64,000 nt of DNA from NCBI RefSeq assembly GCF_048403405.1, contig NZ_CP183129.1. One strand, given 5' to 3'. A program made the position numbers. Shown here piece by piece: positions 57,001 to 60,000 of the stretch (position 1 is its first letter; each line of letters opens with the position of its first letter). The stretch comes from Escherichia coli. Lineage in GTDB: Bacteria > Pseudomonadota > Gammaproteobacteria > Enterobacterales > Enterobacteriaceae.

Positions 57001-60000
57001 TCAGCCATCGGGAACTGCGGCCCAGCTTGATGGGGGCCGGAAAGGCCCCATCCCTGATGAGTTTGTAAAACCACTTATCGGTCAGGCCAGTCAGTTGAGT
57101 GATAAACGCCATGTCGACCATCTGGTCATCCATCAGTGAAACTGGGGTGGTCATGAGAATGTTCCTCCGGATGTTGTTAATCTCAACCGGCGTTGGTGAT
57201 GAAAACAACGCACCACCTTCACCGGCATAACAACCGGGGAGAAACGTAAAAAATAATCGGGAATGTGACCGTCAGGAGATAAACGGGGGGATTGCGGTGG
57301 CTGAGCCGTACCGGTATGTCGGGTGGTTGTTGCGAAACGATGCTTCCGCACGCGATAAAGGAGGGAGGACTTTCGTGAGACAAGGGGAAAACTAGCGTTC
57401 TGATAATTGCAGAGTTGTTTTTGAAGGCGGTTGTGGTATATCAGCCTGTGACCTGTGGGCAGGCGACAGTTATCACTGGTGGGATAAGACTGTCTGATTG
57501 GTATTATAAATATATAAGAGAGATCAAACACATGAGTTCATATATGTGAAATAAATCTGTGAGTGTGATCAGCAGACCAGTCTACCCAGTAGCAACAGAT
57601 TGCGTTGTACTCACAGGGTTATCCCTGATAACTGGCGTATAACCTGCGTACATAAAACGTACCTGCAATGCACCTGAACAGAGTGCATTAAGCATCCGCC
57701 TGAGCGGTAAACGTATCCGATCTGGTGAGTGACAGTCTGAGAGCATTCTCAGTAATCGCCCCCTTGTATCCTGGAAATTGGTTAAGAGCGATTAGATTTG
57801 GCAAGGTGTATGCATCCAGCAGCTTAACACCTCAGCTAACTGGCTGGTTACCTTCAGGTTGTCGCAATGGCATCGGACATCCGGTGTCGGATAACTAAAC
57901 GTAGCGTTAAGGCGATATTGCTGAGAGACCGGTTAAGTGGTGGCACGGGAGTAATGAGTTTGGGGAGGGTACCAGAATGCCAGTCAGGTGCGGTATGCTG
58001 GCAGTATCACGTTGATTGCAGCATAAAGTAACGAGAGACGAATGGAAGTTAAAACCAGAGCAGTTCCGTCGTTGTTCATCCCGGGAGACGCTGGAAAAAG
58101 TGATTACCCGCACACGTTATAAACTTACCCCTGCGGAGCTGGAAGCCTTTAACTCTGCGGTCGATCACCGGCTGGCAGAACTGACAATGAACAAACTTTA
58201 CGATCGCGTGCCGGCTTCCGTCTGGAAATATGTCACCTGAATCTTGAATCCGCGCTACGATGACTCTGGTGTTATCTGTGCACCGGAAGATCGGGAACAT
58301 TAAGCAGTATAACGGCAACAAAGAATTCGAAATCAAAAGGGAATGGTGTACAGAGGGGCAGGCGTTCAGGCATTACCGGCCTGTATCTTCTGAAGGGGAC
58401 TCGTATTTGTCGGGGCTGAGTATTCCGCTCGATTCGATCACGGATTGGCAGAAACCTGACTGTGATTGATTCAGGTACCATTTTGCAGGGATCCGGTGCG
58501 TTACTGTCTGGCACAACAAACGCAGCGGGTCGCTCTGCCCCGCCGACTCCTGATAATCCCTCCCCTGTAACCTACTGCAACAGTACAAATACACTGACGC
58601 CTGAAACGGTAACCAGAATCAGCACCAGCAGTAACGTCAGTAAACAGAGCAGACGATCGGTCTTCCGGTAATAACCGAAGGGGTCGACAGCACCACAATA
58701 CGGGCAACATACTGTATTATGAGTAATTGCGTTACCACAGTCCCTGCACTTCTTTTTGCGTATCACGATCGCTCCCTCTCCACGCCTTATCCGTAACCTG
58801 TTTTTTACATTAAAAAAACAACGCCGGGAATTCAATCGTCAGTCCGGCGATGACCGTTCGGGTTATCACAGAGTGCCTGAGACAGTGTCCTGCCGGAGGT
58901 CACCTCAGGGGCTCTGCGCATTTTTTACGACGTGGTTATTCCGTATGAACCATACGGAGATTTAACCATGACCTACAAATACAACCCCTTCTGGCAGCAA
59001 CGTATTCGTGAGACGGTGCGGCACGCACTGAATGTTCATCCCCGCCTGACGGCATTGCGGGTTGACCTGCGTTTCCCGGATGTACCGGCAGCAACGGAGG
59101 CAGCTGTGATATCCCGCTTCATCAATGCCCTGAAAGCCCGAATCGACGCTTACCAGAAACGTAAGCATCGGGAAGGTAAACGCGTGCATCCCACAACCCT
59201 GCATTACGTCTGGGCCCGGGAGTTTGGGGAGTGCAAAGGTAAAAAACACTATCACCTGATGCTGCTGGTCAACCGGGATACCTGGTGTCGTGCCGGCGAT
59301 TACCGCGCTCCGGGATCACTGGCCGGGATGATTAAACAGGCGTGGTGCAGTGCCCTGGGAGTGGATGCCGGACGTTATGACACGCTGGCACATTTTCCGG
59401 TCAGGCCGGCGGTGTGGCTGGAACGCGATGATGACACCGGCTTTCAGCAGGTGCTGGAGCGTGCTGACTATCTGGCGAAGGAGAGTACCAAAGCTTACGG
59501 CACCGGTGAGCGCAACTTTGGCTGCAGTCGTGGCTGAGCCCGACAGACGACTTATCTGACTTCAGTGTGATGACGTGTTCACAGCGACCACACTGATTTT
59601 CCCTTCTGAGACTGAACTGAAAACCGCCATTCACACCTGACCACGCTGCCCGTACCGGGACGGCTGTTGCCTGCGTGTCGTCTGGCGGTAAGGAACCACA
59701 CTATGTACGCAAAATCTTTTCTCGCACTTGATGGCAACGGACGTCTGACCGGTGCCCGTACCGCACAGACTGCTCCTTATGCCCACTACACCTGCCACCT
59801 TTGCGGCAGTGCACTCAGATACCACCCGCAGCACGACACGGAACGTCCCTGGTTTGAACACACTGACGACGGGCTGACGGAGCACGCGCAGCAATGTCCT
59901 TATGTCAGGCCGGAACGCAGAGAAATACGGTTGATTAAACGTCTGCAGCAATTCGTCCCGGATGCCTTACCCGTGGTACGTAAAGCCAGCTGGTACTGCA

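What the first reader, a model, noticed from the sequence alone, without database searches (positions are those of the whole stretch)
57155..58960. About 1.8 kb with no long ORF, containing a candidate small zinc-ribbon membrane protein
Upstream of alpA there is an unusually long stretch without a convincing gene. A minus-strand ORF (58572-58835; likely GTG start giving about 64 aa) encodes CRDCG...CPYCG followed by a hydrophobic helix, the pattern of small zinc-ribbon membrane proteins often missed in annotation. A plus-strand ORF at 58016-58240 also has protein-like composition.
Basis: seen in the sequence. Interest (0 to 1): 0.38.

Follow-up and report, generated by a model that had tools for sequence, protein, structure and literature searches.

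The report
Island control region with two small genes
This 1.8 kb stretch of an E. coli genomic island is not empty: it holds a known small regulator gene (an Hha copy), a real but uncharacterised 64-residue membrane-anchored zinc-ribbon protein, and conserved control DNA for the neighbouring genes, so it is largely ordinary.

Summary

- **Plus-strand ORF (58016-58240).** This is an Hha/YmoA gene of the published island-borne hha2/hha3 type, linked to the Ag43/yeeR/irmA cluster that also lies in this window.
- **Minus-strand ORF (58572-58766 from GTG).** It encodes a C4 zinc ribbon followed by one C-terminal membrane helix. It was not missed: RefSeq lists it as a hypothetical protein. Across island lineages the ribbon is under purifying selection (pN/pS 0.09-0.40). 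The helix changes sequence but stays hydrophobic.
- **Function.** It is unknown. I infer a tail-anchored inner-membrane protein that presents a zinc ribbon to the cytoplasm.
- **Distant relatives.** They sit in conjugative elements. In all eight places examined they are paired tail-to-tail with an uncharacterised TYW3-like protein that this island lacks.
- **Remaining DNA.** It is non-coding control sequence. The 106 nt next to alpA is constrained and folds over alpA's ribosome-binding site.

Overall this is a known gene, a catalogued but unstudied small protein, and regulatory leaders. Interest is modest.

The parts
56948..57154 (-). alpA-like HTH regulator gene (context; left border of the interval)
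   Evidence: Pfam Phage_AlpA 35.7 bits and HTH_17. RefSeq 'helix-turn-helix transcriptional regulator' WP_000211312.1.
57155..57260 (-). Constrained proximal leader of alpA. As RNA it folds into a long hairpin whose 5' arm (UUUCUCC) pairs with alpA's Shine-Dalgarno (GGAGGAA). The arms carry the inverted GTTGTTA/TAACAAC repeat.
   Evidence: Divergence from 13 other lineages is 0.03-0.075, against alpA synonymous divergence of 0.17-0.31. MFE -37.2 kcal/mol, z -3.33, 1 of 200 shuffles as good. No compensatory changes are available, so an RNA structure and a DNA operator cannot be told apart.
57261..57560 (.). Distal alpA upstream region. It contains invariant blocks (57397-57425, 57473-57523), a perfect TATAAT on the minus strand (57508-57503), and a CAAACACATGAGA unit whose copy number varies between lineages.
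   Evidence: Alignments. Overall divergence is 0.10-0.26, about neutral. There are stops in all six frames and non-3n indels. The promoter assignment is by eye only; the scan tool did not call it.
57745..57920 (.). Lineage-specific ~170 nt segment, absent from 11 of the first 12 other loci compared
   Evidence: Gap fraction 0.92 in the alignment. It occurs at one place in most genomes that carry it (median 1, highest 3) and is full-length in 833 genomes, so it is an indel and not a dispersed repeat.
58016..58240 (+). hha paralog of the island-borne hha2/hha3 type; 74 aa from a TTG start
   Evidence: Pfam HHA 93.8 bits against a cut-off of 25. NCBIfam PRK10945 98.1 bits against a cut-off of 90. 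RefSeq hha WP_001164058.1. Literature: PMC4864382, PMC6480617.
58367..58383 (+). Weak terminator-like hairpin 127 nt downstream of hha
   Evidence: Pattern scan. It is no more than chance would give: 1 found against 2.2 expected.
58572..58769 (-). Small tail-anchored zinc-ribbon protein gene. Probable start is GTG at 58766 (64 aa). RefSeq starts one codon earlier at ATC 58769, which is ATG in the sister lineage.
   Evidence: ORF and start context. 70 homologs, all enterobacterial. C8, C22 and C25 are invariant and C11 is 90% or more conserved. pN/pS 0.09-0.40. AF2 helix 35-64 with pLDDT about 90. The exact sequence occurs on 983 or more contigs.
58770..58967 (.). Divergent control region between the zinc-ribbon gene and yfjJ. 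It holds the palindrome GTTTTTTACATTAAAAAAAC (58800-58819), a long hairpin (58869-58916) followed by a T-run (58921-58926), and a hairpin (58939-58959) covering yfjJ's Shine-Dalgarno.
   Evidence: Mean identity about 0.9 across lineages. The plus-strand RNA 58830-58975 folds at -60.2 kcal/mol, z -5.36, 0 of 200 shuffles. The stem of the SD hairpin is invariant while its loop differs by 5 nt between lineages. No covariation.
58968..59537 (+). YagK/YfjJ ('inovirus Gp2 family') gene (context; right border)
   Evidence: Pfam YagK_YfjJ_C 162.7 bits; RefSeq annotation.

Best explanation
The interval is the control and accessory core of a CP4-44-like (Ag43/yeeR/irmA) genomic island in a B2-type E. 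coli chromosome. It has four working parts.

**1. hha paralog (shown).** The hha2/hha3-type gene encodes a small H-NS co-repressor. Published work links this type to repression of island genes such as Ag43.

**2. Zinc-ribbon gene (shown to be a gene; mechanism inferred).** It is a genuine 64-65 aa protein gene.
- The N-terminal 38 residues carry a C4 zinc ribbon (C-x2-C-x10-C-x2-C). They are flanked by basic residues (RKKK before the ribbon, YYRKTDR before the helix).
- The last 26 residues form one membrane helix with almost nothing beyond it.
- By the positive-inside rule, the protein should sit tail-anchored in the inner membrane with the ribbon in the cytoplasm.
- There it would most likely hold or sequester a cytoplasmic partner (protein or nucleic acid) at the membrane.
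- Its family comes from conjugative elements, where the gene is paired with a TYW3-like protein. The island copy has lost that partner and persists alone.

**3. alpA leader (constraint shown; mechanism inferred).** The 106 nt next to alpA is constrained. It can fold so that alpA's ribosome-binding site is hidden, which suggests translational control of alpA.

**4. yfjJ leader (fold shown; role inferred).** The 198 nt between the zinc-ribbon gene and yfjJ carries divergent promoters. It also carries a strongly folding yfjJ leader that covers yfjJ's ribosome-binding site.
For: **Identity and context.** The window is 100% identical to E. coli DA33137 and 99.9% to ATCC 25922. The order alpA | hha | Zn-ribbon | yfjJ recurs in 19 loci, one of them Salmonella.

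**hha.** HHA domain 93.8 bits and NCBIfam Hha 98.1 bits. Ag43, IrmA and YeeU/CbtA lie in the same window. The hha2/hha3 association with flu-yeeR-irmA and the effect on Ag43 expression come from PMC4864382 and PMC6480617.

**Zinc-ribbon gene.**
- The cysteines are conserved.
- For codons 2-39, pN/pS is 0.09-0.12 against the sister lineage (Fisher p about 1e-3) and 0.34-0.40 against a third lineage (p < 0.01).
- Tails of three lineages are about 30% identical, yet mean Kyte-Doolittle hydropathy is 2.5-2.7 in all.
- AF2 predicts helix 35-64 with pLDDT 88-90.
- A Shine-Dalgarno sequence lies 5 nt upstream of the GTG.
- The gene is intact in 14 of 19 loci, while hha is full-length in only 5 of 19.

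**Leaders.** Divergence and folding results are.
Against: - There is no expression, localisation or metal-binding evidence for the zinc-ribbon protein.
- No Pfam or NCBIfam model reaches its threshold (best 15.2 bits against cut-offs of 23-29).
- AF2 confidence for the ribbon is low (pLDDT 54-60).
- 5 of 19 copies are frameshifted, interrupted or deleted. A few intact ones have lost a cysteine: C21Y in L009, C25 in L024.
- In the window's lineage the ancestral ATG is ATC.
- The N-terminal coding DNA is also highly conserved at the nucleotide level. It abuts the yfjJ control region, so part of the constraint could be regulatory rather than protein-level.
- The partner-tethering role is inference from architecture only.
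- Neither leader structure has covariation support. The whole 351-nt alpA leader is not unusually stable (z -0.97).
- The window's hha starts at TTG without an obvious Shine-Dalgarno sequence, and sister lineages have an in-frame stop in the same N-terminal stretch. Its expression here is therefore not certain.
Confidence: 0.6

Rival explanations
1. The zinc-ribbon ORF is a decaying relic. It is an orphaned half of a conjugative-element gene pair that no longer does anything in the island. Its apparent conservation would come from recent spread of the island and from overlap with the yfjJ control region.
For: - 5 of 19 copies are disrupted or deleted.
- ATG has become ATC in the window lineage.
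- Cysteine losses occur in L009 and L024.
- The partner gene present in every distant relative examined is missing here.
- Nucleotide identity of 58715-58968 is uniformly about 0.9, coding and non-coding alike.
Against: - Synonymous changes exceed non-synonymous ones 3- to 11-fold per site in the ribbon half.
- The frame stays open and the tail stays hydrophobic through about 70% amino-acid replacement, while DNA just past the stop codon becomes unalignable.
- The ORF is better preserved than hha in the same loci.
- It is retained in Salmonella.
Confidence: 0.15
2. The gene is the toxin of a type I toxin-antitoxin-like module. The small membrane protein would be repressed by a cis-antisense RNA. 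That RNA would start at the plus-strand promoter-like site inside the ORF (58684-58713) and end at the hairpin plus T-run (58869-58926).
For: - It is a small, single-helix membrane protein on a mobile element.
- The only sigma-70-like site the scan found in 56900-59100 is on the plus strand inside the ORF. A TTGACG variant of its -35 is present in another lineage.
- The plus-strand RNA downstream folds very stably (z -5.36) and ends in a T-run.
- Distant relatives always overlap a convergent gene.
Against: - One promoter-like site is fewer than chance gives (2.3 expected).
- The T-run is 4 nt from the stem.
- Known type I toxins have no folded zinc-binding domain and are usually not tail-anchored (established knowledge, not tested here).
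- There are no expression data.
- The same plus-strand features are explained more simply as the yfjJ promoter and leader.
Confidence: 0.1
3. The 861 nt between alpA and hha encodes a structured non-coding RNA gene of its own, rather than promoter, operator or leader DNA.
For: - Nothing is annotated there in most of the 3572 genomes that carry it; a few carry an ab initio 'hypothetical protein' call.
- Invariant blocks lie inside otherwise diverging sequence.
- The proximal 106 nt is constrained and folds well on both strands (z -3.33 and -2.47).
Against: - There is no Rfam match even at E <= 1.
- The full 351-nt minus-strand RNA is not unusually stable (z -0.97).
- Only 3 of 56 predicted pairs show a compensatory change, and the covariation term is -1.14 kcal/mol.
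- Outside the blocks, divergence is about neutral.
- The constrained hairpin includes alpA's own ribosome-binding site, which fits a leader.
Confidence: 0.1

Closest known systems
Hha/YmoA family, specifically the horizontally acquired hha2/hha3 paralogs of pathogenic E. coli (Prieto et al. 2016, PMC4864382; Bernabeu et al. 2019, PMC6480617)
   Same: It is a full-length HHA domain gene on a chromosomal island next to the flu(Ag43)-yeeR-irmA cluster, flanked by IS66 elements, and absent from K-12. RefSeq already names it hha.
   Different: The N-terminal 15 residues differ from the 70-aa island form (WP_000453333.1). The only in-frame start is TTG. I did not determine which of hha2 or hha3 it corresponds to.
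Generic small zinc-ribbon proteins with a C-terminal hydrophobic helix (Pfam Zn_ribbon_3 PF13248, Zn_Ribbon_1 PF13240, DUF2116 PF09889)
   Same: It has a CxxC...CxxC ribbon of about 20 residues followed by one hydrophobic helix. NCBI names some relatives 'zinc-ribbon domain-containing protein' or 'DUF2116 family Zn-ribbon domain-containing protein'.
   Different: The window protein scores below every model's threshold. It also carries a family-specific DPFG-x2-R-x2-DR linker that these models do not describe.
Unnamed small ORF on the anti-tra strand of F-type conjugative plasmids (between traN and trbC), paired with a TYW3-like protein
   Same: The two are homologous (hhalign 98.7%). They share size, ribbon, DPFG...DR linker and a single helix, and both sit on mobile elements of Enterobacteriaceae.
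   Different: About 30% identity. The plasmid form has a short periplasmic tail and always overlaps a convergent TYW3-like gene. The island form has neither; hha lies convergent instead, 331 nt away.
Membrane-anchored zinc-binding anti-sigma factors (zf-HC2 type)
   Same: The layout is the same: an N-terminal cytoplasmic zinc-binding module, then one membrane helix. The logic is also the same: holding a cytoplasmic partner at the membrane. This is a resemblance recalled from knowledge, not a tested relationship.
   Different: Those use an HxxxCxxC helical domain of 80 or more residues and sit next to an ECF sigma factor gene. Here the module is a 4-Cys beta ribbon of about 20 residues, and there is no sigma factor gene nearby.
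Type I toxins and entry/superinfection-exclusion proteins of mobile elements (Hok, TisB, TraS, SieB)
   Same: They are small inner-membrane proteins encoded by mobile elements and often unannotated.
   Different: None has a zinc ribbon. No antisense RNA, toxicity or exclusion phenotype has been shown here.

Membership tests
Hha/YmoA family (ORF 58016-58240) | HHA domain above the curated thresholds | tested here: met
   Pfam PF05321 93.8 bits against a cut-off of 25. NCBIfam NF008191 98.1 bits against a cut-off of 90.
Hha/YmoA family (ORF 58016-58240) | For the hha2/hha3 type: location on a horizontally acquired island linked to flu-yeeR-irmA, not at the core tomB-hha locus | tested here: met
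   Ag43, IrmA, YeeU/CbtA and IS66 lie in the same window. The linkage itself is described in PMC6480617.
Hha/YmoA family (ORF 58016-58240) | Binding to H-NS and co-repression of target genes | not testable with these tools
   This needs protein interaction or expression assays.
Zinc-ribbon proteins (ORF 58572-58766) | Two CxxC knuckles with ribbon spacing, conserved across homologs | tested here: met
   C8-x2-C11 ... C22-x2-C25. C8, C22 and C25 are invariant and C11 is 90% or more conserved in A2. All four are also invariant in the merged alignment with distant relatives.
Zinc-ribbon proteins (ORF 58572-58766) | Match to a curated zinc-ribbon model (Zn_ribbon_3, Zn_Ribbon_1, DZR, DUF2116) at its gathering score | tested here: not met
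   Best scores are 15.2 bits (zf-ChsH2, cut-off 23.2) and 14.3 bits (Zn_ribbon_3, cut-off 27). There is no DUF2116 hit for the window protein.
Zinc-ribbon proteins (ORF 58572-58766) | Zinc actually bound | not testable with these tools
   This needs metal analysis of purified protein.
Tail-anchored single-pass membrane proteins | One C-terminal hydrophobic helix of about 20 or more residues with little sequence after it, preserved among homologs | tested here: met
   Residues 40-64 have mean Kyte-Doolittle hydropathy 2.5-2.7 in all lineages. AF2 predicts helix 35-64 with pLDDT 88-90. Only 0-3 residues follow.
Protein-coding gene under selection | Excess of synonymous over non-synonymous change between diverged copies | tested here: met
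   For codons 2-39, pN/pS is 0.09-0.40 with Fisher p 5e-4 to 9e-3. The tail has a nominal dN/dS above 1 but is saturated and remains hydrophobic.
Type I toxin-antitoxin module | A cis- or nearby-encoded antisense RNA overlapping the toxin mRNA | tested here: inconclusive
   There is one promoter-like site on the opposite strand inside the ORF, against 2.3 expected by chance, and a stable hairpin with a T-run downstream. No transcript data are available.
Zn-ribbon / TYW3-like gene pair of conjugative elements | A convergent, 3'-overlapping gene for an 'ASCQGHG' TYW3-like protein | tested here: not met
   The partner is present in 8 of 8 distant contexts. It is absent from the window and from the island loci searched, by tblastn and by HMM search of the six-frame translation.
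Known RNA families (861-nt gap and both leaders) | Match to an Rfam covariance model | tested here: not met
   There are 0 matches at E <= 1 in 56000-60500. The 4 gathering-level matches in the window all lie elsewhere.

The most novel reading that the evidence does not exclude
The small protein belongs to a previously undescribed family of tail-anchored zinc-ribbon proteins of proteobacterial mobile elements. Its signature is C-x-DCG ... C-x2-C-x-S-x-DPFG-x2-R-x2-DR followed by a helix.

In conjugative plasmids and integrative elements the family forms a fixed two-gene module with a half-size TYW3-like (putative SAM-dependent methyltransferase fold) protein. The two genes are encoded tail-to-tail with overlapping 3' ends.

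The E. coli island copy would be an orphan that is still selected. It may act on its own as a membrane tether or exclusion factor, and possibly talks to the incoming plasmid's partner protein.
Probability: 0.3. Interest if true: 0.55.

Novelty: new member of a known kind. Interest (0 to 1): 0.3.

Why it matters
**For this window, little changes.**
- hha2/hha3 is published.
- The small protein is already in RefSeq as a hypothetical.
- Leaders that hide ribosome-binding sites are common.

**What is useful.**
- The unstudied 64-aa protein now has comparative evidence that it is real.
- It has a corrected start codon: GTG at 58766, not the annotated ATC.
- It has a defined sequence signature.
- It has a link to an uncharacterised gene pair inside the transfer regions of F-type plasmids.

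The locus is 99.9% identical in the reference strain ATCC 25922, so all of this can be tested directly. If the plasmid pair turns out to affect conjugation, exclusion or nucleic-acid modification, the widespread island copies become relevant. More than half of complete E. coli genomes carry the region. They would then bear on how chromosomal islands and plasmids interact.

Tried and rejected
- **Rfam.** A permissive search of 56000-60500 found nothing. The whole window at gathering threshold gave four hits, all elsewhere.
- **Protein libraries for the small protein.** PADLOC gave no match for any of the five local proteins. PHROGs gave only unknown-function families at weak E-values. A PDB sequence search gave only generic zinc fingers, such as reverse gyrase at E 0.03.
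- **Species-representative genomes.** A peptide-pattern scan matched 26 stretches, but none was confirmed by tblastn. A 20-mer from the alpA leader found only one contaminated MAG contig. The element is therefore essentially confined to E. coli and close relatives.
- **Viral contigs and phage records.** Only three and one fragmentary hits respectively.
- **The 88-aa 'hypothetical protein' annotated between alpA and hha in some genomes (L012 1641-1907).** The frame is broken in the window and by non-3n indels between lineages, so I reject it as a gene.
- **The ~170-nt extra segment as a miniature transposable element.** It occurs at one place in most genomes that carry it (median 1, highest 3), so I reject this.
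- **K-12 CP4-57.** It has a different alpA-yfjI-yfjJ layout and no counterpart. A second K-12 look-up was aimed at the wrong coordinates and gave nothing relevant.
- **Covariation tests of both leaders.** They are uninformative because the sequences are too similar.
- **Literature searches.** Searches by RefSeq accession and by yfjJ/yagK/alpA terms found nothing on the small protein.
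Full report
**Where the window comes from.** The interval 57155-58960 is 100% identical to the chromosome of E. coli DA33137 and 99.9% identical to ATCC 25922. Parts of it occur in 3705 of 5426 complete E. coli genomes, with a median of two places per genome.
- The window runs from the glc operon through a kps capsule region into a CP4-44-like island.
- That island carries a YeeU/CbtA toxin-antitoxin pair, IrmA, several IS66 copies and Ag43.
- The local gene order is YfjI (+), a 190-aa hypothetical (-), alpA-like HTH (56948-57154, -), the interval, a YagK/YfjJ 'inovirus Gp2 family' gene (58968-59537, +), and DUF7828/zinc-ribbon genes cut by IS66.

**Check of the observation.**
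- No ORF in the interval exceeds 126 aa. That longest one (57151-57531, -) is broken by 1-, 2-, 6-, 8- and 13-nt indels in other island lineages.
However, RefSeq annotates both in identical genomes: hha (WP_001164058.1, window 58016-58240) and a hypothetical protein (WP_001547002.1, window 58572-58769).
- The stretches with no annotation are 861, 331 and 198 nt long.

**The plus-strand ORF is a known gene.**
- It matches Pfam HHA at 93.8 bits and the NCBIfam Hha model at 98.1 bits, above its cut-off of 90.
- Extra chromosomal hha copies named hha2 and hha3 were described in enteroaggregative strain 042. They are enriched in pathogenic lineages including ST131, absent from K-12, flanked by transposase genes, associated with the flu-yeeR-irmA cluster, and implicated in modulating one Ag43 copy (PMC4864382, PMC6480617). 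This window has exactly that context.
- One caveat concerns the N-terminus. The 70-aa form found in four other loci reads TKEDWLYQFRRC. The window's lineage reads QHKVTRDEWKLKPEQFRRC from a TTG start with no obvious Shine-Dalgarno sequence, and seven sister copies have a stop codon within that stretch.
- Full-length hha is present in only 5 of the 19 loci compared.

**The minus-strand ORF is a real gene.**
- *Start codon.* The conserved protein begins MVIRKKKC. In one lineage the first codon is ATG. In the window's lineage it is ATC, which RefSeq nevertheless uses as the start, and it is immediately followed by GTG.
- *Spread.* A search of 5.8 billion proteins found 70 relatives, all from E. 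coli, Shigella, Salmonella or Klebsiella and none with a Pfam domain. The exact sequence occurs on at least 983 contigs.
- *Conserved residues.* C8, C22, C25, H17, the GYYR motif and D38 are invariant, and C11 is nearly so.
- *Selection on the ribbon.* I fetched 18 further loci with the same synteny. For codons 2-39, differences per site were:

| Comparison | Non-synonymous | Synonymous | Ratio | Fisher p |
|---|---|---|---|---|
| Window vs sister lineage | 0.022-0.034 | 0.24-0.29 | 0.09-0.12 | about 1e-3 |
| Window vs third lineage | not computed separately | not computed separately | 0.34-0.40 | < 0.01 |

  A comparison between two non-window lineages gave p = 8e-6.
- *The tail.* The last 26 residues are only about 30% identical between lineages, but mean hydropathy is 2.5-2.7 in all. 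The frame stays open, while the DNA just past the stop codon becomes unalignable.
- *Structure prediction.* AlphaFold predicts a confident helix for residues 35-64 (pLDDT 88-90) and a poorly resolved ribbon (pLDDT 54-60).
- *Integrity.* The gene is intact in 14 of 19 loci and frameshifted, interrupted or deleted in 5. Selection is therefore real but not absolute, as expected in a decaying island.

**What the small protein is likely to do.** No library gives a function.
- Pfam and NCBIfam zinc-ribbon models score below threshold. PADLOC has nothing. PHROGs offers only unknown families.
- From the sequence: basic residues flank the ribbon (RKKK before it, YYRKTDR before the helix), and nothing follows the helix. 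The positive-inside rule therefore puts the ribbon in the cytoplasm and makes the protein tail-anchored.
- My best inference is a membrane tether or sequestering factor for a cytoplasmic protein or nucleic acid. This is architecture-based and unproven.
- I rate the claim 'it is a real tail-anchored zinc-ribbon protein' at about 0.8, and any specific role at about 0.25.

**A wider family and a lost partner.**
- A profile search of 1.84 billion representatives found few relatives, 55 at E <= 0.001. Several small proteins shared the whole layout and a DPFG-x2-R-x2-DR linker.
- Profile-profile comparison confirms homology (98.7%, E 2.4e-16).
- These relatives lie in conjugative elements:
  - 120 PLSDB plasmids, 116 of them conjugative, between traN and trbC on the opposite strand and mostly unannotated;
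  - a Serratia plasmid beside TraC and TraG;
  - a Raoultella element beside AcaB, TopB, SSB and type IV pilus genes;
  - a Cellvibrio contig, and metagenomic contigs with Dot or Tra genes.
- In all eight places the gene is convergent with, and overlaps by 12-120 nt, a 126-219 aa protein carrying an ASCQGHGFP...PYVAF motif. These partners are homologous to each other (30-78% identity, E 1e-15 to 1e-76).
- Ten more cluster pairs in the two search tables share identical longest-contig lengths, which is consistent with co-location.
- The partner is absent from the window and from the island loci searched. The island gene is thus an orphan branch of a two-gene module whose function is unknown.

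**The non-coding parts.**
- *General.* The 861 nt between alpA and hha has stops in every frame and no Rfam match.
- *alpA proximal leader.* The 106 nt adjoining alpA diverges by only 0.03-0.075 from other lineages, while alpA's own synonymous sites diverge by 0.17-0.31. As minus-strand RNA it forms a hairpin of -37.2 kcal/mol (z -3.33) in which UUUCUCC pairs with alpA's GGAGGAA. The arms are the invariant inverted repeat GTTGTTA/TAACAAC.
- *Hexamer enrichment.* AACAAC/GTTGTT occurs five times in 376 nt, where 0.3 is expected.
- *alpA distal region.* Further out, divergence is about neutral except for invariant blocks. One block holds a perfect minus-strand TATAAT at 57508-57503.
- *RNA or DNA element.* Only 3 of 56 predicted pairs show a compensatory change, so an RNA element and a DNA operator cannot be distinguished.
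- *yfjJ side.* Plus-strand RNA 58830-58975 folds at -60.2 kcal/mol (z -5.36, 0 of 200 shuffles). It contains a long hairpin followed by a T-run, and a second hairpin over yfjJ's Shine-Dalgarno. The stem of that second hairpin is invariant while its loop length differs between lineages.
- *Reading.* These look like translational or attenuation leaders. The promoter and terminator scan itself found nothing above chance.

**Verdict.**
- One gene is known and published.
- One small protein is catalogued but unstudied, and it now has good comparative support and a corrected start.
- The rest is regulatory DNA.
- The most interesting by-product lies outside the window: the conserved zinc-ribbon/TYW3-like pair in conjugative plasmids.

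Noticed in passing
[not shown]
   Followed up: partly
window 58764-58769: RefSeq starts the small protein at ATC (58769), apparently carried over from lineages where this codon is ATG. In this lineage the adjacent GTG (58766), with a well-spaced GAGGGAG, is the likelier start.
   Followed up: yes
window 57155-57260: The 106 nt next to alpA is 4-5 times more conserved than alpA's synonymous sites. It folds into a hairpin that hides alpA's ribosome-binding site. Its arms are an invariant GTTGTTA/TAACAAC inverted repeat.
   Followed up: partly
window 58830-58975: The yfjJ leader folds far better than shuffled sequence (-60.2 kcal/mol, z -5.36). It has a terminator-like hairpin with a T-run, then a hairpin over yfjJ's Shine-Dalgarno whose loop length varies while its stem is invariant.
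   Followed up: partly
window 58016-58060: The N-terminus of this hha copy differs from the 70-aa island form and begins at TTG. Seven sister copies carry an in-frame stop here and are annotated as 49-aa fragments. Only 5 of 19 loci keep a full-length hha, fewer than keep the zinc-ribbon gene.
   Followed up: partly
window 57523-57545: A CAAACACATGAGA-like unit is present in one to three tandem copies in different island lineages, just upstream of the putative alpA promoter. It could be slippage or repeated binding sites.
   Followed up: no
window 57745-57920: A ~170 nt segment is absent from most other lineages. It is full-length in about 830 genomes, at one place in most of them, and is not a dispersed repeat.
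   Followed up: partly
window 56290-56862 (-): A 190-aa protein always sits next to alpA in these islands. It has no match in Pfam, NCBIfam, PHROGs or PADLOC.
   Followed up: no
window 52166-52371 (-), 6285-6506 (-), 9756-9879 (+), 13164-13202 (+): Rfam gathering-level matches elsewhere in the window: IS102 RNA between the GTPase gene and Ag43, C0719 RNA, STnc490, and a JUMPstart element ahead of the capsule genes.
   Followed up: no
window 60100-61900 and onward: Nested IS66 insertions truncate the second DUF7828/zinc-ribbon gene downstream of yfjJ. One IS66 transposase gene is itself interrupted by another.
   Followed up: no
L012 1641-1907 (equivalent to window 57295-57560): Some RefSeq genomes annotate an 88-aa hypothetical protein (WP_000840364.1) in the alpA upstream region. 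The frame is not conserved between lineages, so it is probably a spurious call.
   Followed up: yes
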